Origin: a virus
Reading direction: 5' to 3' (one strand)
Virus record (IMG/VR): IMGVR_UViG_3300035698_029289
Location: 9,980 to 73,979 of that record
Length of the DNA: 64,000 nt
The notes beneath the pieces were generated by a model that searched no databases, had not been told where the DNA came from, and was given only the letters and a program-made list of their open reading frames with translations. Below are positions 1,464 to 47,208 of this stretch, piece by piece. The first letter of the stretch is position 1, and the number at the start of each line of letters is the position of its first letter. A program made the translations under genes and the position numbers.

Positions 1464-1970
1464 ATGGAAGAGCTGAAGGACTACCTCATTGAAAGCTTCA
1501 ATGCTGGTGACACGGCTTCTGATTGTGCAAGGCAACTAAATTTCTCCCGTCAATATATTCACCAATTGATTCGTTTTTTTGAAATTGACTATCGTAAATA
1601 CCTTAGGAGGTGGAGGAAGGCTCGCCACAAGCCAAAGAAAAGGAATTGTGAGTTATGCAATCGGCGATTCATTGTCAATAAAAACGGGGCTACGGTTAAA
1701 TTTTGTTCGAAAGAATGCAAAAAGGAGTTTGATAGGGCTTATAGAAGAGTACAAATGAAAGTCTATCTGAAAGTTTATCGTCAAACCGAAAAATTCAAGA
1801 AATATCGAAAAAAAGTCCAAAAGAGGAAATATGAGCGACGAAACTGGGCAATTACCAGAATATGTCCCGTTTGCTTACAGGAATTTCATCCACGACTTGT
1901 TAATTTGAAAATGAAGTATTGTTCGCATGATTGTTATTATTCTCGGGGAAAAGTTGACAACTCAAGTTGA
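1464..1970 (+). CDS. HTH + Cys-rich Zn-finger basic protein (regulator-like)
   Basis: N-terminal HTH (ASDCARQLNFSRQYIHQLI) and two CxxC...CSxxC fingers. Confidence 0.6.
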   Translation: MEELKDYLIESFNAGDTASDCARQLNFSRQYIHQLIRFFEIDYRKYLRRWRKARHKPKKRNCELCNRRFIVNKNGATVKFCSKECKKEFDRAYRRVQMKVYLKVYRQTEKFKKYRKKVQKRKYERRNWAITRICPVCLQEFHPRLVNLKMKYCSHDCYYSRGKVDNSS

Positions 1971-1994
1971 TGTGATATATTATAGGAATTAACC

Positions 1995-2363
1995 ATGAAA
2001 TTCTCGCTTCCAGAATTCCTCAAACGACACAAACACGATTGGGAGTTGGTTGCCAAAACTGTTTCTGAACCCAAAAATATTTCCACTAATAACTTAACCA
2101 CAAGTTTTTCTCAAGATTTCTTGGATAAATTGATTTTCGGAATGACTACGTATGTTTGGGAGTGTGTGGAGTGTGGTGCAACAAGGAAACAAGAGTGTCT
2201 GGGGACTGAAAATACTTCCCTGGACGAAATTCTTGATAGGGTGGATAGTTACGGTAGCCAGCAGGTTGCTAGGGGGAACAAGCAGTATGTGGTTGTCCAC
2301 CGCTCACCTCAACCACACCCCATTAATCCGATGCCACAAAGGCTTCCAATTAGAAAACAATGA
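1995..2363 (+). CDS. hypothetical Zn-ribbon protein
   Basis: HKHDW...ECVECG; TTGACA promoter at ~1954. Confidence 0.6.
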   Translation: MKFSLPEFLKRHKHDWELVAKTVSEPKNISTNNLTTSFSQDFLDKLIFGMTTYVWECVECGATRKQECLGTENTSLDEILDRVDSYGSQQVARGNKQYVVVHRSPQPHPINPMPQRLPIRKQ

Positions 2364-2372
2364 TAGCAAAAC

Positions 2373-2873
2373 ATGCCCACAAAGAAGATTAAAAAAGACC
2401 TTCGGAATATATCTTCACTCAAGCTATGGAGCAAAAACCCTCGTTATATCAAAAAAGAAGATTTCAAGCGCCTCAAAAAATCCATCAAAAAATTCGGGCA
2501 ATTTAAGCCCATTATTATTACCAGTGAGGGTGTTATCGTTGGTGGAAACATGAGATTGCGGGCGATGAGGGAATTGGGTATCAAGAAGATTTGGGTTTCA
2601 GAAATAGATGTTCAGACAACAAGCGAGATTTTGAAAATTTCTCTTTTGGACAATGAGGGTTTCGGCAAATATGACGAAGAAGCCCTGGCGGAACTTCTTT
2701 CGCAAGAGACCATTGACATTCCGCTAGAAGATTATAAGATAAATGTTGGGAAAAACATCAACCTGCAAAAAGTGCTCGACAAGTTTGCTCCGTCGGGGGA
2801 AGACATTTTGGATGACATAGAAGAACCGGAAATGATTACTTGCCCGAAGTGTGGGCATAAATTTGAACCATGA
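2373..2873 (+). CDS. ParB/sulfiredoxin-like domain protein
   Basis: KNPR, SIKKFGQFKPII, GGNMRLRA, DNE, C-terminal CPKCG; typical position upstream of terminase. Confidence 0.85.
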   Translation: MPTKKIKKDLRNISSLKLWSKNPRYIKKEDFKRLKKSIKKFGQFKPIIITSEGVIVGGNMRLRAMRELGIKKIWVSEIDVQTTSEILKISLLDNEGFGKYDEEALAELLSQETIDIPLEDYKINVGKNINLQKVLDKFAPSGEDILDDIEEPEMITCPKCGHKFEP

Positions 2874-3031
2874 AACAACACAAAGTGAAATTTAGAAAAT
2901 GTCGTTTTTGTAAAAAGAAGGTTGAAAATGGACCAGGACTTCATATTGTTCTTGATTTTAAGAAAAAAAGTACGGAATTTTATCATTTAGGTTGTGCTAT
3001 AAAGAATAATTTAATGTGGGGAAAAGAATGA
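2870..3031 (+). CDS. 53 aa Zn-finger protein
   Basis: Below track cutoff: MKQHKVKFRKCRFCKKK...FYHLGC...WGKE; ATGA overlaps at both ends. Confidence 0.6.
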   Translation: MKQHKVKFRKCRFCKKKVENGPGLHIVLDFKKKSTEFYHLGCAIKNNLMWGKE

Positions 3032-3411
3032 AACAACACATAACTAAAACCCAGCTAAATGAATTGAGTGAGAAGGGGAAGGAGAGGCTGAGGAAGTGGT
3101 GGATTAAAAGACATCTTAAGAATGTAGATGAGTTAAGGATTACAATTTTTGGTAAGGGTGATAAAAAAGAAGCTCAAGATAATCATGATAAAAAAATGGC
3201 ACAGAGAGAATATCAAGAGCATGGTAGGTTTCTCTCCGTCGGAATGATGATAGAGTTTTTGGATGAGAAATATAAAAAGAATCCTTGGCCTGATTTCTGG
3301 GATGATAGAAAGGAAAACAGAAGAATTGATGAAATTGATGTAATAATTTCTTGGAAAGATGAACTCTGTGATGCCCTGTTTTTGGCTGTGAAAGAAGTAT
3401 TAGAAAAATGA
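3028..3411 (+). CDS. hypothetical protein, paralog of 56806..57156
   Basis: MKQHITKTQLNELSEKG...LSVGMMIEFL...ELCDALF.AVKEVLEK. Confidence 0.7.
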   Translation: MKQHITKTQLNELSEKGKERLRKWWIKRHLKNVDELRITIFGKGDKKEAQDNHDKKMAQREYQEHGRFLSVGMMIEFLDEKYKKNPWPDFWDDRKENRRIDEIDVIISWKDELCDALFLAVKEVLEK

Positions 3412-3926
3412 AGAAAAAGAAAGCAAGAACTAAGCCCTATGTTCGACCATACACAAGAACGGCAGTTTTACTTCCCAAAACTCAAAGATATAACTGGCTC
3501 GTCATGAAAAAGACTTTCCTTGCCGATCCAACAATTTCTCTCACCGACCTTGCGAAGAAATACAAAGTTTCTCAAAAGACTCTTCTCAATAAAGCTCGAA
3601 GAGAAAGATGGATGGCTTTGCGTGAAGAAATTCAGAAAAGAGCAGAGGAAAGAATGATTAGGGCAACAGAGGAAAAGCTCTCTGAGGTTAAAATGAGACA
3701 TTCTCAAATCGGTAAAATGCTTCAACATGAAGGAGTAAAGGCTATTCGTAAAGGGAAAGGGCCTAAAACTCCAAAACAAGCCCTAAAATTCACAACGGAA
3801 GGGGTGAGAATTGAAAGGGAGGCTGAGGGTGTGGAGAAAAGAGGACCGGCTATCGTCAACATTGTTCAACAACAAAAAGCGGTTGTAGACAAATACAGAT
3901 TTGAAGAAGGTGAGGTGGTGGAGTGA
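3408..3926 (+). CDS. terS: terminase small subunit
   Basis: HTH (ISLTDLAKKYKVSQKTLLNKARRERW) plus coiled coil, upstream of TerL. Confidence 0.7.
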   Translation: MKKKKARTKPYVRPYTRTAVLLPKTQRYNWLVMKKTFLADPTISLTDLAKKYKVSQKTLLNKARRERWMALREEIQKRAEERMIRATEEKLSEVKMRHSQIGKMLQHEGVKAIRKGKGPKTPKQALKFTTEGVRIEREAEGVEKRGPAIVNIVQQQKAVVDKYRFEEGEVVE

Positions 3927-4666
3927 AAGAAACTAGGGATAGAAAAATAGTAAGGAAACTCATTGATGACTATGGAGAGGAGTTTGTTGAGAAAGTGTGG
4001 CCCAAATTGCCGGGAAGCGAGTATGGCAACTTGGAAAGCATGGTTCTTTATTGTTTTTTGCGTCACTATAAGCCGAAGTATGTTTTGGAAGTAGGAACAG
4101 AGGTTCATGGTCGGACGACACACATTGTTCATAAAGCTCTTTTGGCTAATGGCGAATTTCAAAAACACATCATGTCCGACTTGGAGGGGAAAGTAGAAAA
4201 GGCTTTCGGGAATTTATGTCGAGATTTGCCGGTTAACCAGGAAAAGGTTAAGCTCTTGTCGGGGGTGATTCAACAGACTTTCAGAAAAATTGATCTTTCT
4301 ATGGTCGATTTCTTGCTTATTGATGCCGATCACCAGCGAGATTTTGCAACTTTTTACCTAGATGAACTTATTCCGCCGTTGGAAGACGGAACTTATGTTC
4401 ATATCCATGATGTTAATTTGTCCGGGAATTGGAGTTGGAGGCCTGCTCCAGACAGTGAAGTCGAAGAATTTCTTGAGCGCAGGTCAAAGGGGCGATTTCC
4501 TTTGAAAAAACTTTTCTGGTTGGAAGACTGGTGCATTAATCTAAAATATGTAGACAACAGAAATAAGATTAATGAACGCTTTCCTTTTATTGGGTCGTTT
4601 TCGGAATCGGAAACTGGGCTTCCTTATTCAAGTTCTGCATCCTATTGGGAGAAACTGGGAAAATGA
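3923..4666 (+). CDS. class I SAM methyltransferase (Methyltransf_24-like)
   Basis: VLEVGT, DFLLIDADH, GTYVHIHD. Confidence 0.8.
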   Translation: MKETRDRKIVRKLIDDYGEEFVEKVWPKLPGSEYGNLESMVLYCFLRHYKPKYVLEVGTEVHGRTTHIVHKALLANGEFQKHIMSDLEGKVEKAFGNLCRDLPVNQEKVKLLSGVIQQTFRKIDLSMVDFLLIDADHQRDFATFYLDELIPPLEDGTYVHIHDVNLSGNWSWRPAPDSEVEEFLERRSKGRFPLKKLFWLEDWCINLKYVDNRNKINERFPFIGSFSESETGLPYSSSASYWEKLGK

Positions 4667-4959
4667 GTAAAATATCCAAGGGAAATTATTATGAAAATAA
4701 AGCACGCGATACTTTGAGAAAGTGGGGGTATAAAGTTGAGAAGCCAGTGAGGACAAAATTCAGTCGCAAAGATTTTTTCGATTTATTCGATCTTTTTGCC
4801 ATCCGCGAACTTGATGCCAAGTTAATCCAAGTGAAACTCAATAGGTGGCCATCAGGAGAACTCGTCCGTAAATTGAGGGCTTTTAAACATCCGAGAGGCA
4901 TTAAGATTGAGGCGTGGCGATACAAAAAGCACAAAGGTTTTAGCATAAGGGAATATTGA
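4663..4959 (+). CDS. PD-(D/E)xK nuclease, Holliday-junction resolvase-like
   Basis: GNYYE...LRKWGYKV...FDLFA...IQVK. Confidence 0.75.
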   Translation: MSKISKGNYYENKARDTLRKWGYKVEKPVRTKFSRKDFFDLFDLFAIRELDAKLIQVKLNRWPSGELVRKLRAFKHPRGIKIEAWRYKKHKGFSIREY

Positions 4960-5835
4960 ATGGTAATTAATCGCAAGAAATTCATTGAGGAACAATTTTT
5001 GATTCTCAGCAAAGAGAATAAGGTGGTTCCATTTCATTTTTGGCCCGTTCAAGAAAAGTATTATAATATGTTGGTTGGTGATTATGGGCCGGAATTAAAA
5101 GGAACAAGGGAGATCATTTTGAAGGCAAGGCAGCAGGGATTTTCAGCTTTGGTTCTAGCACTTTTCACAGTCGATTTTATTACTAACCCGAACAGTGTTT
5201 CAATTTGTATTTCCCATAGGAAGGATGCCACTCAAATGTTGTTCAAGCGCGTGAAGTTTTTTCTTGAGAGCTATTGTAATAAACACAAGTGGGATATTAA
5301 GAGATATTTAGCGACTGATAGCAAAAACGAGATAGAGAATAGGACAAATAATGCCTATTTTTATATTGGTACAGCTGGATCGAAGGTTGGTGGCAGAGGA
5401 GGAACTGTGCAAAATATACATTTTTCCGAGGGTGCGTATTATTTGGACACCGACAGAATCACGGCCAGAGAAATGATTGAAGGAACGAGTCAACAGGTTG
5501 CTCAGGGAACTGGAATAATTTTTATTGAATCCACAGCCAATGGTTATGGGAACTATTATCAGCATGTTTGGGAAAAGGCAAAGAGGGGAGAAAGCACTTA
5601 TAGGCCAAGATTCTTTAGTTGGGAGGAGTTTTATGACAAAGAATGGGTTGAAAAGAAAAGGGGCGACTTTGAATCGGAAGCAATGTGGAAGCAAGAATAT
5701 CCTCTGACAGCTCGAGAGGCATTCATTTCCTCTGGAACTCCATTTTTCGATCATGCTGTATTAGAAAAATTATTGGAAAAACAGGTTGAACCAATAAAAA
5801 TGGGAAGGCTTGCCCAGGATGGGCAGTGGATTTAA
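4960..5835 (+). CDS. terL: terminase large subunit, ATPase part
   Basis: ILKARQQGFS (Walker A), GRGGT, IHFSE (Walker B), IESTANG. Confidence 0.92.
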   Translation: MVINRKKFIEEQFLILSKENKVVPFHFWPVQEKYYNMLVGDYGPELKGTREIILKARQQGFSALVLALFTVDFITNPNSVSICISHRKDATQMLFKRVKFFLESYCNKHKWDIKRYLATDSKNEIENRTNNAYFYIGTAGSKVGGRGGTVQNIHFSEGAYYLDTDRITAREMIEGTSQQVAQGTGIIFIESTANGYGNYYQHVWEKAKRGESTYRPRFFSWEEFYDKEWVEKKRGDFESEAMWKQEYPLTAREAFISSGTPFFDHAVLEKLLEKQVEPIKMGRLAQDGQWI

Positions 5836-6473
5836 TGGCAAAATTACCACTGAAAGATCCATTTCGACTCTACCGCCAATTGGAGGATGGTGAACAATTT
5901 TGTATCTTTGGCGATCCAGCAGAGGGAAGAGATTTTTGTGCAGCAGCAGTGGTCAGTAAAAGACATGGAGATTTTCCCTTAATTTATAATAATCGCACAG
6001 AAAGCTCTCAATTTGGCTATGATATTCATAAAATAGCGAAATATATCCACCGCAAAACTGATTTGTGGCCAATGGTTGCTATTGAAAGAAATGTCGGTGC
6101 GGCGACAATCTTTGTTTTGCAGGAATTGAATTATCCCCGTATGTTCAGAATGCCTGTTTTTGATAGTGCGACTCACAAGGAAACTACCAAAATCGGTTGG
6201 CTTACAACAAGGGCGACTCGTAGCAAAATGTTGAATGATTTTGCCATGGCATTGAGGCAGGGCCAAGCTATGGTTTACGACCAGGAAGCCATCGAGCAAA
6301 TGTTGGCTTTTGTTTACAAGTTAGGGCGGGGGCAAATCGAGGCGGGGAAGAAAGATGACTTGGTGATTGCTCACAGTGGAGCATGGCAGCTTTATTTGCT
6401 TGTTCCGACCCTCAGTGACGCAGATGAAGATATAGACTGGGAAGAAGAAAGAAGGAAGTGGAGGTTCAAATAA
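5835..6473 (+). CDS. terL: terminase large subunit, RNase H-like nuclease part
   Basis: IFGDPAEG, AIERN, GWLTT, KDDLVIA; TAATG-coupled to the ATPase gene. Confidence 0.9.
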   Translation: MAKLPLKDPFRLYRQLEDGEQFCIFGDPAEGRDFCAAAVVSKRHGDFPLIYNNRTESSQFGYDIHKIAKYIHRKTDLWPMVAIERNVGAATIFVLQELNYPRMFRMPVFDSATHKETTKIGWLTTRATRSKMLNDFAMALRQGQAMVYDQEAIEQMLAFVYKLGRGQIEAGKKDDLVIAHSGAWQLYLLVPTLSDADEDIDWEEERRKWRFK

Positions 6474-6763
6474 TGTCAAAGAAATTTATTGATTACCATA
6501 AACAGAAAAGTCACAATGAAAGAATGATTTCCGAGCTTTTGCGGAAAGTGCGACCAGACATTTGGGTTTTAATGGATTTGATAGACAAGACGGATATGAA
6601 CCCAATAATAGTATTTAAGTTTCTGAGGCAAGTCAACAATGTCATTCTGGGGTCGGGGTGGGGGCAAGTGACGCTAGTAATTAACAATAGGGTGGCAAAA
6701 TATATTCGCGGTGAGGACACAGATAAAATCGAAGCAGAGATTGTTTTGCCACGACCAAAATAG
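6473..6763 (+). CDS. small protein with DUF2292/YezD-like C-terminus; candidate antiterminator
   Basis: GWGQVTLVINNRVAKYIRGEDTDKI resembles the YezD pattern; directly precedes RNA cassette 1. Confidence 0.5.
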   Translation: MSKKFIDYHKQKSHNERMISELLRKVRPDIWVLMDLIDKTDMNPIIVFKFLRQVNNVILGSGWGQVTLVINNRVAKYIRGEDTDKIEAEIVLPRPK

Positions 6764-6770
6764 TCAACTA

Positions 6771-6877
6771 TTGACAAGACAAAATTTTTGTTGTAGTGTT
6801 TAATTAACAGTTACTTGAAGCGAAAAAGCGCTAGAGGACTGCAATATACCCGAGTGGGCGTGATTGCAGTCCTTTTT
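6771..6877 (+). promoter_or_regulatory. leader cassette 1: promoter + internal-loop hairpin + terminator
   Basis: TTGACA-17-TAGTGT; CTT GA AGCG aaaaag CGCT A GAG; AGGACTGCAAT...ATTGCAGTCCT then TTTT. Confidence 0.8.
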
Positions 6878-6893
6878 ATTTGAATTATTAACT

Positions 6894-8963
6894 ATGGCCC
6901 AAAAGAAGAAAGAAAGAAAACCAAAAGGTGTTATCGCCTTTTCAGAGTTAAAGAATCACTACGATTTAGCCAATGATGAGACTGACAAAAGACGGACGGG
7001 TCGAGGAAAAATCGGAACGATTTCTTTTGACGAAGCAGACGAGTTGTTCCGTTCTTGGCTCGATGAAGATAGTTGGCCATATGATGCTCTCCTTTTTGAT
7101 CCTCGCGTTTTCACTTTTATTTTTGAAAAGACTTCAAGGTTAATCTCCAACAAACTCAGAGGAAGATTGATTCCCCGAGAAGGTGGAGATATGTTGGCGG
7201 CTCATATCAATAACGAGTTATTGAGTTTTCAATGGGATCAGGCGACTCATAGCGGCTCAATGATTTCAAAATGGGCTTTAATGGATTTGAATGCGAGGAA
7301 GTATGGCGCTGCTTTTGCTTTGTGTAAATGGCGCTATGAGCTTGCTCCTGATGAGAAAGTTTTGTTTGACGGACCGGGAATGCAAATTTTGAATAATAGA
7401 GATTGTCTCCCCGATCCGGCGGCGACAGACATTGAGTCTTGTAACTGGTTCCAAGCTAGGCAATATGTTACTTTTCAAGACCTTGAAAGGGTTAATGATA
7501 GAGCGCGAACGAAGCCTGTTTACAAAAATCTTGATAAATTAAGAACAGTAATTAGCCAGAAAGCAGAGAAGAGCGGTGGAGATTCCCGAGACATTAACTG
7601 GACATCTCGAAATCGACAAATTTCTGGACTTACCACAGATCCGGTTGGAAAAGACGCTGCCTTCAAGACAGTAGAGATTGTGACAGAATACCGGAAAGGT
7701 CGCTGGATCACCTTTTCGCCCCGACATGGAGTCATCCTTCGAGATATTGCCAATCCATATCACAATAATGAGATTCCGATTGTAATGCTTCGCTATTATC
7801 CGATCGATGACGACTTGTATGGCATGAGCGAAATTGAGCCAGTTAAAGGATTGCAAAAGGCAATCAATGCCATCCTCTCTCAATATGTGGATGAAATCAA
7901 CCAAAAGCTTTATACGCCTATTGCTGTCGGTCCTGGTGTTCGGCAGCACACATTGCGATGGGGAAAGGGTGCGAGGTGGATTATGAACAATCCAATGACA
8001 GACTTTCGATTGGTTGAATCTCGGTCGAATGCGGCACAATTCTTCAACAATACCTATTCTGTATTAGTGGCCGCTTTAATGAATTCTATCGGAGAAACTT
8101 CTTTGGGAGTTTCCAATATTAGCAGGTTTCAAGCAGAAAAGACTGCGACTGAGGTGAAACAGCTTGTTTCTCAAAGAAATGCACGGGATAATTTCAATCA
8201 GACATTTTTGGGAGAGGCGCTTAAAAGACAAATGATTCTGTGGCATACCATGAATCAAGTAATGATATTCAGCGATCCAGAAAAGAAATCCTATGTTATT
8301 CGGATTATTGGAAGAGACGCAATCCGATACTTTGAAGAAAGCGGGATTGGGGCTTATGGCTTGACCGAAGAGGGAGCAAAATTGCTTCAAGAAAACACAG
8401 AAAGGACGATGGCAGAAGGAGGCGAAGAAACAGGAATTCCAGAGGACTTCATGATTCCAATGTCGCCAGTGTCAATGGGAGAAGAAGAGGAGGCTATCCC
8501 CAAGTTTTCTCTTGACATGAGCAAGCAACTTGGTACTTTAGTTATAGAGCCAGAGGATTTAAAAGGAAATTATGATTTCATTGCCGATGTGGAATCGATG
8601 GCTTTATCGGCAGGAGAACAGCAAATGCAAGGAAGAAAAGCTGCTTTCAATATGCTTCTTTCTAATCCGCTGGTAGTAGAATTTTTGGCAAAGGAAAAAG
8701 TGAGACCGAAGTTTAAAGATTTGTTTGTTGCATGGCTTGAGGATGTTGGAATGAAAGATGCTGAGAAGTTCTTTGAAAATATTCCGCCTGAGGAAATGCT
8801 TGGTCCACCGGGAATGGGACAACCAGGAATGGGTCAGCCCGGAATGGCTCCGCAGGGAATGGGACAGCCACCAATGACAATGGGTAGTCCTATGCCAGGA
8901 GGTCCAGGCGGCGTGGCTCCATTAGCTCCTTCTCCGAGAGCGAGAGGAGGTGGAACAGTTTAA
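6894..8963 (+). CDS. portal protein
   Basis: ~690 aa after TerL; YGMSEIEPV, KTATEV motifs; PGMGQ-repeat tail. Confidence 0.88.
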   Translation: MAQKKKERKPKGVIAFSELKNHYDLANDETDKRRTGRGKIGTISFDEADELFRSWLDEDSWPYDALLFDPRVFTFIFEKTSRLISNKLRGRLIPREGGDMLAAHINNELLSFQWDQATHSGSMISKWALMDLNARKYGAAFALCKWRYELAPDEKVLFDGPGMQILNNRDCLPDPAATDIESCNWFQARQYVTFQDLERVNDRARTKPVYKNLDKLRTVISQKAEKSGGDSRDINWTSRNRQISGLTTDPVGKDAAFKTVEIVTEYRKGRWITFSPRHGVILRDIANPYHNNEIPIVMLRYYPIDDDLYGMSEIEPVKGLQKAINAILSQYVDEINQKLYTPIAVGPGVRQHTLRWGKGARWIMNNPMTDFRLVESRSNAAQFFNNTYSVLVAALMNSIGETSLGVSNISRFQAEKTATEVKQLVSQRNARDNFNQTFLGEALKRQMILWHTMNQVMIFSDPEKKSYVIRIIGRDAIRYFEESGIGAYGLTEEGAKLLQENTERTMAEGGEETGIPEDFMIPMSPVSMGEEEEAIPKFSLDMSKQLGTLVIEPEDLKGNYDFIADVESMALSAGEQQMQGRKAAFNMLLSNPLVVEFLAKEKVRPKFKDLFVAWLEDVGMKDAEKFFENIPPEEMLGPPGMGQPGMGQPGMAPQGMGQPPMTMGSPMPGGPGGVAPLAPSPRARGGGTV

Positions 8964-9318: not shown

Positions 9319-9387
9319 ATGGAATTTGGAAGTTTTTTAAAAGGCAAAAAGAAAAAGAAAAAAAAGAAAAAGAAGGAGGCGAAATAA
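9319..9387 (+). CDS. 22 aa poly-lysine peptide
   Basis: MEFGSFLKGKKKKKKKKKKEAK; strong SD AGGAGGTG; stop abuts next ATG. Confidence 0.5.
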   Translation: MEFGSFLKGKKKKKKKKKKEAK

Positions 9388-9591
9388 ATGCCATATCGCA
9401 GGAGCGGAACTAAAGTCTTACACAAAAAAGGAGGCAAGTGGAAAGTAAAACAAACTTGCCGCTCTGAAGCTGCTGCCAAAAGAGCCATGAGCTTATTGAG
9501 AGGCTTGGAATCTGGTAGCATTAAGCCAAGCCAAGTTGGGAAAGGAAAGTTTGCCAAAAAAAGGAAAACTAGCCGGAAGAGAAAGAAATAA
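9388..9591 (+). CDS. very basic small protein
   Basis: 67 aa K/R-rich; SD AGGAGG. Confidence 0.7.
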   Translation: MPYRRSGTKVLHKKGGKWKVKQTCRSEAAAKRAMSLLRGLESGSIKPSQVGKGKFAKKRKTSRKRKK

Positions 9592-27680: not shown

Positions 27681-27778
27681 TTGACAGGATCCCTTTAATT
27701 TAGTTAGAATGATTTAATACCTCCGAAGCAGCAAATTGCTAGGGGGGAACAAGAGACAAATTTTATTTGTCTTTTTTT
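27681..27778 (+). promoter_or_regulatory. leader cassette 2
   Basis: TTGACA-18-TAGAAT; CTCC GA AGCAG caaa TTGCT A GGGG; AGACAAAT..ATTTGTCT then T-tract. Confidence 0.8.
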
Positions 27779-27784
27779 GTTGCC

Positions 27785-28337
27785 ATGAATGATGAGATAG
27801 TTACCACACCATTGCCAGAAGGGAAAGAAAAATTGGGGAAAGATCGGCCCGAGACGGAACAGGAAGTTAGAGTAACAAAACAACTAGAGCAATTTCAAAC
27901 AGAAAAGAAAGAAAAAATTGCTAAGCCAATCTATAAAAAAGAGCCTCCCGTAAAAGCAGAGGTCGAAGAAAAAGTCAAGGAAGCAGTTGAAGAGGAGGTC
28001 AAAGAAAAAGAGCCAGTTGTTTCTCCGGAAGACTATTACTTGACTGATCCTCTTTTTTATAAAGTGGCGAATTATTTCGGGCTAGCACAAAGAGATTGGA
28101 GCATTGCCAAAGACAAATTGTCTGTGATTGTTGACTGGGCTGTTCTTAGAACTCAATCACGGAAAGCCGCTGATGTTTTAACAGCGATTCGTGCATTAGA
28201 GGATGAGATTACCTCGCCTGGTCTGGGAGAAAGAAGATATGCCAATGTTCACAAATTTGTTCGCTTATTGGGTCAAAAAGAATCTTTAGAAAAAGAGTTA
28301 AAAGTTTATAAAAAACATGAAGTAAAGGAGGTGGTAA

Positions 28338-28345: not shown

Positions 28346-30660
<2,315 letters not shown>

Positions 30661-35798: not shown

Positions 35799-35895
35799 TT
35801 GACAAAGGATAATTATCCTTAGTATAGTTAAATTACATATTCTCCGAAGCAGCAAATTGCTAGGAGAAGGCAAGCTTTATTGGCTTGCCTTTTTT
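35799..35895 (+). promoter_or_regulatory. leader cassette 3
   Basis: TTGACA-18-TATAGT; TTCTCC GA AGCAG caaa TTGCT A GGAGAA; AGGCAAGC..GCTTGCCT then TTTTT. Confidence 0.85.
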
Positions 35896-35931
35896 GTTGA
35901 TTTATCAATACCGCGAAGGAGGTGAAAATTT

Positions 35932-40943: not shown

Positions 40944-41038
40944 TTGACAAGGAAGCGAATTGTTGTTTTAATTAATTATAGAGTCTGTTAAGCGGGAAAC
41001 GCTCGCAGACGACAATAGGGTCTAACCGACCCTTTTTT
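40944..41038 (+). promoter_or_regulatory. leader cassette 4
   Basis: TTGACA-17-TTTAAT; GTCTGT TA AGCG ggaaa CGCT C GCAGAC; AGGGTC..GACCCT then TTTTT. Confidence 0.8.
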
Positions 41039-41067
41039 ATTGGAATAAATTAAAAGAAAGGAAGAAA

Positions 41068-47111: not shown

Positions 47112-47208
47112 TTGACAAAGGTGGAGGCATGGTTTAATAATGTATTATATGTTCATAAGGCGGTTTAATCGCTAGTGAACAAGAAGAGCCGATAATTGGC
47201 TCTTTTTT
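47112..47208 (+). promoter_or_regulatory. leader cassette 5
   Basis: TTGACA + AT-rich -10; GTTCAT AA GGCGGT tta ATCGCT A GTGAAC; AAGAGCC..GGCTCTT then TTTT. Confidence 0.78.

What the first reader, a model, noticed from the sequence alone, without database searches (positions are those of the whole stretch)
6473..6877. DUF2292/YezD-like gene directly upstream of cassette 1: candidate protein partner
Seen: a 96 aa ORF, TAATG-coupled to TerL, ends 7 nt before the first cassette's -35. Its C-terminus (GWGQVTLVINN...IRGEDTDKI) resembles the YezD/DUF2292 pattern by eye. Inference: it is the trans-acting antiterminator, so its expression with the packaging operon would unlock all five structural blocks.
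Basis: inference. Interest (0 to 1): 0.8.

Follow-up and report, generated by a model that had tools for sequence, protein, structure and literature searches.

The report
Phage DUF2292-like protein beside late leaders
A real, conserved 96-residue phage protein, encoded after the large terminase and just before the first of five promoter-hairpin-terminator units, has a tail related to the uncharacterised DUF2292/YezD family. It is a plausible but unproven candidate for the factor that lets transcription pass those terminators.

Summary
ORF 6473-6763 (96 aa) overlaps the stop of the TerL nuclease-half gene (TAATG), has a GGAGG ribosome site, and ends 7 nt before TTGACA at 6771.

It belongs to an unnamed family of about 107 clusters found only in uncultured phages (one hit lies in a Patescibacteria MAG). 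The family model is confident (pLDDT 94): three helices plus a beta-hairpin, with no solved or viral fold match.

P0001 alone misses Pfam. However, 31 of 110 relatives hit PF10055, and the family profile matches true DUF2292 proteins (hhalign 89.8%, E 1.8e-6, residues 49-88).

The antiterminator reading is partly supported.
- For: of nine true DUF2292 genes examined in Patescibacteria, five are directly followed by a small hairpin plus terminator. All related phages carry the ORF, and every larger contig I scanned in full (14 kb up) also holds a promoter-leader-terminator unit.
- Against: the ORF is tied to TerL and portal in 80 of 80 loci, and 32 of 78 lack a terminator there. Where genes are inserted, the unit stays with the portal. 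The family is acidic. Nothing shows RNA binding.

This scan has noted the DUF2292-hairpin link before in other genomes. My odds: regulator of the leaders 0.45, packaging accessory 0.25.

The parts
6473..6763 (+). 96-aa ORF (P0001): N-terminal helices (8-26, 28-40), then helix 44-59 and beta-hairpin 64-82; residues 49-88 are DUF2292-like
   Evidence: ORF; family; model, pLDDT 94.3; hhalign to DUF2292, 89.8%
6461..6475 (+). Ribosome-binding site GGAGG and the TAATG stop/start overlap with the TerL nuclease-half gene
   Evidence: read directly from the sequence
5835..6473 (+). TerL nuclease half, itself TAATG-coupled (5833-5837) to the ATPase half 4960-5835
6771..6799 (+). Promoter of unit 1: TTGACA, 17 nt, TAGTGT
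6808..6841 (+). Leader hairpin 1: outer stem, 2-nt 5' bulge (GA), 4-bp inner stem AGCG/CGCT, 1-nt 3' bulge. Its last 7 nt (AGGACTG) are also the start of the terminator stem.
   Evidence: RNAfold; alignment of the five copies; model R1, 33 bits
6835..6877 (+). Intrinsic terminator 1: 11-bp stem AGGACTGCAAT/ATTGCAGTCCT, 17-nt loop, T-run
6894..8963 (+). Portal gene (SU10-type), first gene behind unit 1
27681..27785 (+). Promoter-hairpin-terminator unit 2
35799..35896 (+). Promoter-hairpin-terminator unit 3
40944..41040 (+). Promoter-hairpin-terminator unit 4
47112..47207 (+). Promoter-hairpin-terminator unit 5

Best explanation
P0001 is a phage-specific, N-terminally extended relative of the DUF2292/YezD/OscA small proteins. 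It is made from the unattenuated terminase operon.

Most likely it acts in trans on the short conserved hairpins at the 5' ends of the five late leaders, so that RNA polymerase passes the intrinsic terminator behind each hairpin. This would switch on the portal/capsid, tail and other late blocks.

Shown: the gene is real, its DUF2292 kinship, its position and coupling, the five units, and the recurrence of 'DUF2292 gene, then hairpin plus terminator' in unrelated bacterial loci.

Inferred: RNA binding, the direction of the effect (read-through rather than termination, stability or translation), and the mechanism. In unit 1 a bound hairpin would exclude the terminator stem through a 7-nt overlap. 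In units 2, 4 and 5 hairpin and terminator do not overlap, so another mode is needed there, such as a modified elongation complex or steric block.
For: - Homology of residues 49-88 to true DUF2292: hhalign 89.8%, E 1.8e-6; 31 of 110 members hit PF10055; matches lie on helix 3 and the hairpin, two above cut-off; 4 members hit NCBIfam OscA.
- Independent recurrence. Of nine true DUF2292 genes from Patescibacteria genomes, L157, L159, L168 and L170 are followed at once by ACCGC(A/C)nnCGGA beside a terminator. L156, behind a gpA-type TerL, is followed by TTGACA-17-TATAAT, a GA-GGAGA-ACA-TCTCC-AG hairpin and a terminator.
- The phage units share that layout: (G/T)A, a short G+C-rich stem, an A/C-rich loop, then A(G). 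In G017 the unit right after the ORF reads ACCGAACAACGGA.
- One ORF copy goes with many units per genome, as for a regulator and its regulon: G000 5, G007 6, G017 at least 7, G016 4.
- All 80 portal-related records hold the ORF.
- The ORF's own operon (promoter near 1954 to 6763) has no such unit, and neither do the first 10 kb of the genome.
- No known antiterminator or sigma factor was recognised in the other genes of that operon.
Against: - No result shows RNA binding. DUF2292 itself has no known biochemical function: only 2 papers in the library mention it, neither mechanistic.
- The family is acidic (median pI 5.5, net charge -2). Only R52 and K85 are basic in more than 60% of members.
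- The fold matches no solved or viral structure.
- 32 of 78 loci have no terminator between ORF and portal, with gaps down to 2 nt.
- In G010 and G011 the unit stays with the portal, 2.5-3.4 kb from the ORF.
- Strict TerL-ORF-portal order and frequent start/stop overlap with TerL fit a packaging role as well.
- Co-occurrence inside one phage lineage is not independent evidence.
- Three or four of the nine true DUF2292 loci show no hairpin-terminator.
Confidence: 0.45

Rival explanations
1. Packaging or head-completion accessory. The protein works with the terminase and/or portal, as a small adaptor or stopper like lambda gpW, which is also encoded between TerL and portal. It has nothing to do with the leaders, which are simply the portal operon's own promoter and attenuator.
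For: - The ORF lies directly upstream of the portal gene in 78 of 80 loci and within 3.4 kb in the other two.
- In about 60% of the loci it is directly behind TerL, with start/stop overlap or a gap of 2 nt or less.
- This order holds down to about 20% protein identity and in loci with a 2-52 nt gap to the portal.
- Two true DUF2292 genes overlap the end of an unrelated gpA-type TerL (L156, L158).
- The family is acidic, with few conserved basic residues.
- Where genes are inserted, the unit follows the portal, not the ORF.
Against: - True DUF2292 genes also occur in bacterial loci with no terminase or portal. There the shared neighbour is the hairpin plus terminator.
- No similarity to gpW: hhalign 0.2%.
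- No PHROG or structural-protein family hit.
- A promoter nearly always separates the ORF from the portal gene (59 of 78), so the two are not co-transcribed.
Confidence: 0.25
2. A regulator that acts on the same units in another way. It could bind the conserved -35 region (CCCTTGACAAAGG) as a Q-like or activator/repressor protein. It could stabilise the 5'-terminal hairpin against RNases, or promote rather than prevent termination.
For: - The gene sits at the end of the preceding operon, directly before a promoter with a short terminated transcript, as lambda Q sits before PR'-tR'.
- The -35 flanks are conserved among units 3-5.
- Hairpin and terminator do not overlap in units 2, 4 and 5, so simple competition cannot explain them.
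- The hairpin starts within 1-2 nt of the likely transcript start.
Against: - G-U pairs and an asymmetric 2x1 internal loop point to an RNA element, not a DNA element.
- No HTH or other DNA-binding domain was found.
- The family is acidic.
- The bacterial DUF2292 loci conserve the hairpin, not a promoter element.
Confidence: 0.15
3. The units need no phage factor: the terminators are leaky, or the hairpin acts on RNA polymerase by itself like HK022 put. P0001 then has an unrelated, unknown role.
For: - put-type RNAs work without a protein (established knowledge).
- The hairpin sequence is specific to each genome. Model R1, built from the five window copies, finds only those five. Other clades carry quite different leader motifs, while the protein core stays conserved.
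Against: - The hairpin is much smaller than put (about 30 nt, one stem-loop).
- The repeated pairing of DUF2292 genes with such hairpins in unrelated genomes would then be coincidence.
Confidence: 0.15

Closest known systems
DUF2292 / YezD / OscA small proteins (Pfam PF10055; NCBIfam NF033785)
   Same: The core is a helix end plus beta-hairpin with the signature (Y/W)G-x-V-x-I-x-I-x-(D/N)G-x-V. hhalign gives 89.8%, E 1.8e-6. 31 of 110 members hit PF10055. The gene is often followed at once by a small hairpin and a terminator.
   Different: P0001 itself scores below Pfam's threshold. It carries about 45 extra N-terminal residues forming two conserved helices (N15, F19, the RPD motif). It is phage-borne and fixed between TerL and portal. 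DUF2292 has no established biochemical function. OscA is known only as a sulfur-starvation response gene (my own knowledge of Viti et al. 2009; not found in the library).
Lambda N / nut processive antitermination
   Same: A small phage protein, several promoter-proximal RNA hairpins and terminators that gate blocks of genes. It would explain units where hairpin and terminator do not overlap.
   Different: N is basic and disordered, with an arginine-rich motif. P0001 is folded (pLDDT 94), has no such motif, and its family is acidic. There is no boxA/boxB, and no sequence or fold relation.
RAT-binding antiterminators (LicT/SacY/BglG) and HutP
   Same: The protein stabilises a leader hairpin that competes with a terminator. 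This fits unit 1 (7-nt overlap) and L168. These proteins need not be basic.
   Different: No CAT/PRD or HutP domain was found. Units 2, 4 and 5 show no overlap.
Lambda Q at PR'-tR'
   Same: The regulator gene is the last gene before a constitutive-looking late promoter whose transcript ends after about 70 nt.
   Different: Q binds DNA and acts at one site. Here there are five sites with a conserved RNA hairpin. There is no homology.
Lambda gpW (head-tail adaptor Ad1)
   Same: A small protein with helices and one beta-hairpin, encoded between TerL and portal.
   Different: hhalign probability is 0.2%. The order of helices and hairpin differs. gpW is not separated from the portal gene by a promoter.
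ConAn1/conAn2 of pLS20 (PF17362; PMC8191782)
   Same: A two-part protein plus RNA antitermination system on a mobile element.
   Different: No member of the family hits PF17362 among the listed Pfam matches. conAn acts once at the head of one long operon.

Membership tests
DUF2292 (PF10055) | Sequence match to the Pfam model at or above the 22-bit gathering score | tested here: not met
   P0001 has no hit at E<=1, and there is none in the whole genome. Distant family members do match: 31 of 110 at E<=1; P0115 and P0069 score 23.1 bits.
DUF2292 (PF10055) | Profile-profile homology of the helix and beta-hairpin core | tested here: met
   A3 against four true DUF2292 proteins: 89.8%, E 1.8e-6, 36 columns, P0001 residues 49-88.
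DUF2292 (PF10055) | Small single-domain protein of about 50-90 aa with one N-terminal helix | tested here: not met
   P0001 has three helices before the hairpin. The first 45 residues have no counterpart in A13.
DUF2292-linked leader hairpin (proposed in earlier notes of this scan, not a published family) | Gene followed directly by a small G+C-rich hairpin next to an intrinsic terminator | tested here: met
   Window unit 1. The same holds in 5 of 9 true DUF2292 loci. The exact motif ACCGC(A/C)nnCGGA is not in the window; a close form, ACCGAACAACGGA, is in G017.
ConAn1 (PF17362, pXO2-34) | Match to PF17362 | tested here: not met
   No Pfam hit for P0001. PF17362 is not among the families listed for the 110 members. 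The family's identity comes from PMC8191782.
Lambda N-type antiterminators | Arginine-rich RNA-binding motif in a disordered basic protein | tested here: not met
   The protein is folded with pLDDT 94. No arginine cluster is seen in the sequence. Family median pI is 5.5.
gpW head-tail adaptor | Sequence or profile similarity to lambda gpW | tested here: not met
   hhalign A3 against lambda W: 0.2%. Only a single gpW sequence was used, so a very remote relation is not excluded.
XtrA | Match to an XtrA family model | tested here: inconclusive
   No Pfam or PHROG family matched P0001. I did not check which accession holds XtrA.
Any solved RNA-binding fold | Structural match of the model | tested here: inconclusive
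   Best matches: Foldseek PDB E 1.7; BFVD E 0.16; VIA-align Z 4.9 over 39 helical residues (rmsd 4.5); second look Z 3.0.

The most novel reading that the evidence does not exclude
DUF2292/YezD-type proteins are a widespread, undescribed class of small RNA-hairpin-binding antiterminators. This phage group has recruited an extended version as the master switch of its late genes. One copy is made with the terminase and opens five to seven promoter-hairpin-terminator gates spread over the virion genes.
Probability: 0.4. Interest if true: 0.8.

Novelty: new variant of a known kind. Interest (0 to 1): 0.6.

Why it matters
If the reading is right, it gives a function to a Pfam family that has had none for years (DUF2292/YezD/OscA). 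It would also define a new protein-RNA antitermination pair.

It would explain how a large group of uncultured phages, probably infecting ultra-small Patescibacteria, time their late genes without any recognisable Q, N or sigma factor.

The system is small: a 96-aa protein, a 30-nt hairpin and a terminator. It is directly testable in vitro and could serve as a compact genetic switch.

If the packaging reading is right instead, it adds one more small TerL/portal accessory protein of modest interest.

Tried and rejected
- Pfam, PHROGs and NCBIfam on P0001 alone gave nothing.
- Rfam found no family in the window or in four related loci.
- Fold searches of the pLDDT-94 model gave no meaningful match: Foldseek PDB and BFVD, VIA-align wide and second look.
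- The ESM Atlas gave no feature hit; its structure rows come from the Atlas's own poor model (pTM 0.26) and were ignored.
- A search for longer, fused forms found none, which is weak evidence.
- tblastn against 50,697 phage records found no relative of P0001 and only one weak portal hit.
- Covariance model R1, built from the five window hairpins, finds only those five, so it cannot serve as a co-occurrence probe.
- MAFFT could not align hairpins from different genomes. I used a descriptor script and reading by eye instead. That script missed units 1 and 2 of the window, so its negatives mean little.
- Co-occurrence within the portal lineage cannot discriminate, because all 80 records hold the ORF.
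- A second copy of the L156 hairpin was not found in its genome.
- Relatives cannot be drawn for a virus record.
- Several alignments were too diverse for the search for related loci, and clade A11 found nothing.
- I first leaned towards a gpW-like packaging role. hhalign to gpW (0.2%) and the bacterial DUF2292 loci without any terminase moved me away from it.

Full report
**1. What is at the coordinates**

- The window is a phage genome fragment: 40% G+C, nearly all genes on one strand. The record is 73,979 bases, estimated 78% complete.
- ORF 6473-6763 encodes 96 residues.
- Its ATG overlaps the TAA of the preceding ORF as TAATG, and GGAGG lies 8 nt upstream.
- The preceding ORF is the nuclease half of a large terminase. 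That terminase is itself split into two TAATG-coupled genes, 4960-5835 and 5835-6473.
- The ORF stops at 6761-6763. Seven bases later comes TTGACA (6771), then 17 nt, then TAGTGT.
- Next is a hairpin at 6808-6841, then an 11-bp terminator stem at 6835-6873 with a T-run to 6877. The portal gene starts at 6894.
- Four more units of the same build lie at about 27681, 35799, 40944 and 47112.
- None lies in the first 10 kb of the genome, or upstream of the ORF within its operon.

**2. Is it a real gene, and what family is it?**

- A word-indexed search found five close relatives.
- An exhaustive profile search found 110 cluster representatives at E<=1e-3. Of these, 107 are proteins of 70-145 residues with the same pattern, and three long repeat proteins are spurious.
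- No source gives any of them a name.
- None is in PHROGs or in 50,697 deposited phage genomes.
- With six sequences the fold was poor (pLDDT 55). With 110 it was confident: pLDDT 94.3, pTM 0.69, helices 8-26, 28-40 and 44-59, strands 64-71 and 74-82.
- No solved or predicted viral structure resembles it.
- Nearly invariant positions are N15, P28 (in an R-P-D motif), N43, G60 and G64. These look structural.

**3. The DUF2292 question**

- P0001 alone does not hit PF10055.
- Scanned one by one, 31 of the 110 members do, best E 9e-6.
- In ten members inspected, the match always covers the end of helix 3 and the hairpin. Two reach the 22-bit curated cut-off.
- Four members weakly hit NCBIfam OscA.
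- I fetched true DUF2292 genes from Patescibacteria genomes, aligned four of them and compared profiles. The result was 89.8% probability, E 1.8e-6, over P0001 residues 49-88.
- I conclude that the C-terminal half is a diverged DUF2292 domain, and that the first 45 residues are a phage-specific extension.
- ConAn1 is Pfam PF17362 (PMC8191782) and does not match.

**4. Gene order in relatives**

- In 32 loci fetched with the ORF, and 80 fetched with the portal, the ORF always lies upstream of a homologous portal gene. It is directly upstream in 78 of 80, and 2.5-3.4 kb upstream with inserted genes in the other two.
- In most loci it follows TerL, often with overlapping stop and start.
- One relative lies on a contig binned with a Patescibacteria MAG.
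- Between ORF and portal, 59 of 78 loci have a TTGAC box, 46 of 78 a terminator, and 32 both. Gaps of 2, 31 and 52 nt leave no room for a leader.
- In G010 and G011, where genes were inserted, the promoter-hairpin-terminator unit lies in front of the portal. The ORF is followed directly by another gene.
- So 'ends 7 nt before the -35' reflects gene order, not a special bond between the ORF and unit 1.

**5. The units elsewhere**

- Whole contigs show that multi-copy units are a trait of the group: five in this genome, six in G007, at least two in G006, at least seven in G017, and four in G016 with the leader AAAGTTAGTAAGCT.
- The hairpin sequence differs between genomes, so model R1 finds only its own five copies.
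- The layout recurs: a 5-6 bp outer stem, a 2-nt 5' bulge ending in A, a 4-5 bp G+C-rich inner stem, a 3-7 nt loop and a 1-nt 3' bulge. It includes G-U pairs, which points to RNA rather than DNA.
- Hairpin and terminator overlap by 7 nt in unit 1 and slightly in unit 3. They do not overlap in units 2, 4 and 5.

**6. What changed my reading**

Up to I favoured a packaging accessory. The reasons were the strict TerL-ORF-portal order, an acidic family (median pI 5.5; P0001's 9.7 is an outlier), and a true DUF2292 gene overlapping the end of an unrelated gpA-type TerL (L156).

Earlier notes of this scan claim that DUF2292 genes are regularly followed by a small hairpin that competes with a terminator. 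I tested this on nine true DUF2292 loci from 401 Patescibacteria genomes:

| Locus | What follows the DUF2292 gene |
|---|---|
| L157 | GACCGCAATCGGAGGCAC..., beside a terminator |
| L159 | GACCGCAAACGGAGGCAC..., beside a terminator |
| L168 | AACCGCAAACGGAGGCAC..., beside a terminator |
| L170 | GACCGCCCCCGGAAGCAT..., beside a terminator-like hairpin (weak T-run) |
| L156 | promoter, another hairpin and a terminator |
| L158, L169, L171 | nothing of the kind |
| L172 | unclear |

L157, L159, L168 and L170 are ordinary bacterial loci in front of secreted-protein genes, with no terminase. The neighbour that DUF2292 genes share across contexts is therefore the leader hairpin with its terminator, not the packaging machinery. 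In G017 the unit right behind the phage ORF reads ACCGAACAACGGA, close to the bacterial motif.

**7. Weighing**

- The regulator reading now has homology plus several independent co-occurrences. It also fits the one-gene-many-sites pattern and the ORF's place in an unattenuated operon.
- It still lacks any evidence of RNA binding, and it rests on a family whose function is unknown in the literature.
- The packaging reading keeps the synteny and coupling arguments.
- My odds: 0.45 that the protein acts on the leaders to allow read-through; 0.25 for a packaging role; 0.15 for another regulatory mode; 0.15 for factor-independent units with an unrelated protein.

**8. Novelty**

- The class of mechanism, a protein-dependent antiterminator at a leader hairpin, is known.
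- The protein family, the hairpin and the five-gate layout in a phage are not described in Rfam, in Pfam annotation or in the searchable literature.
- This scan has noted the DUF2292-hairpin link before on other DNA. What is new here is the extended phage form and its universal place between TerL and portal.

Noticed in passing
window 4960-6473: The large terminase is encoded as two genes, an ATPase half of 291 aa and a nuclease half, joined by a TAATG stop/start overlap at 5833-5837. Relatives of the close clade are split at the same place (L001, L008, L010 and others). Some phages of the distant 42-kb clade have one 433-458 aa gene.
   Followed up: partly
window 2373-2873: A ParB N-terminal domain protein (Pfam E 1e-6) with a C-terminal zinc ribbon lies in the same operon, upstream of the likely small terminase (3408-3926). 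A class-I methyltransferase is at 3923-4666, and a small nuclease-like ORF at 4645-4959 (weak PHROG hit to a Holliday junction resolvase).
   Followed up: partly
window 9388-9591: A very basic 67-aa ORF rich in K, R and G, behind a purine-rich A/G tract (about 9330-9385), with no family match.
   Followed up: no
window 28705-30660: A 651-aa ORF with long tandem 66-nt (22-codon) repeats of a collagen-like G-x-y type (repeat families D1, D2 and D4).
   Followed up: no
L047 (Patescibacteria MAG contig DASWFI010000149.1) and L053 (IMG/VR 3300002917_000003): These two loci have the same ORF sizes, spacing and scores in the TerL-ORF-portal region. A phage contig is therefore binned with a Patescibacteria MAG, which hints at the host group of this phage lineage.
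   Followed up: partly
L156 71-1623 and L158 21-1665: In two Patescibacteria genomes, a lambda gpA-type large terminase gene is overlapped at its end by a true DUF2292 gene of 70-77 aa. This is the place where lambda has gpW.
   Followed up: partly
L157, L159, L168, L170 (downstream of the DUF2292 genes): A conserved leader motif (G/A)ACCGC(A/C)nnCGGA(G/A)GCA sits next to a terminator, in front of secreted-protein genes in four different Patescibacteria genomes. Rfam was not run on these loci.
   Followed up: partly
G016 (reverse-strand coordinates 4468, 18898, 20962, 24213) and G017 (seven sites): The 42-kb phage clade uses other short leader motifs before its terminators, for example AAAGTTAGTAAGCT four times in G016. 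The leader element seems to be swapped between clades while the ORF is kept.
   Followed up: partly
genome G000 about 7440-7520 (outside the window): A tRNA-like sequence on the minus strand (GGTTCGAATCC-type T-arm, read as its reverse complement), seen while scanning for promoters. It was not run through ARAGORN.
   Followed up: no
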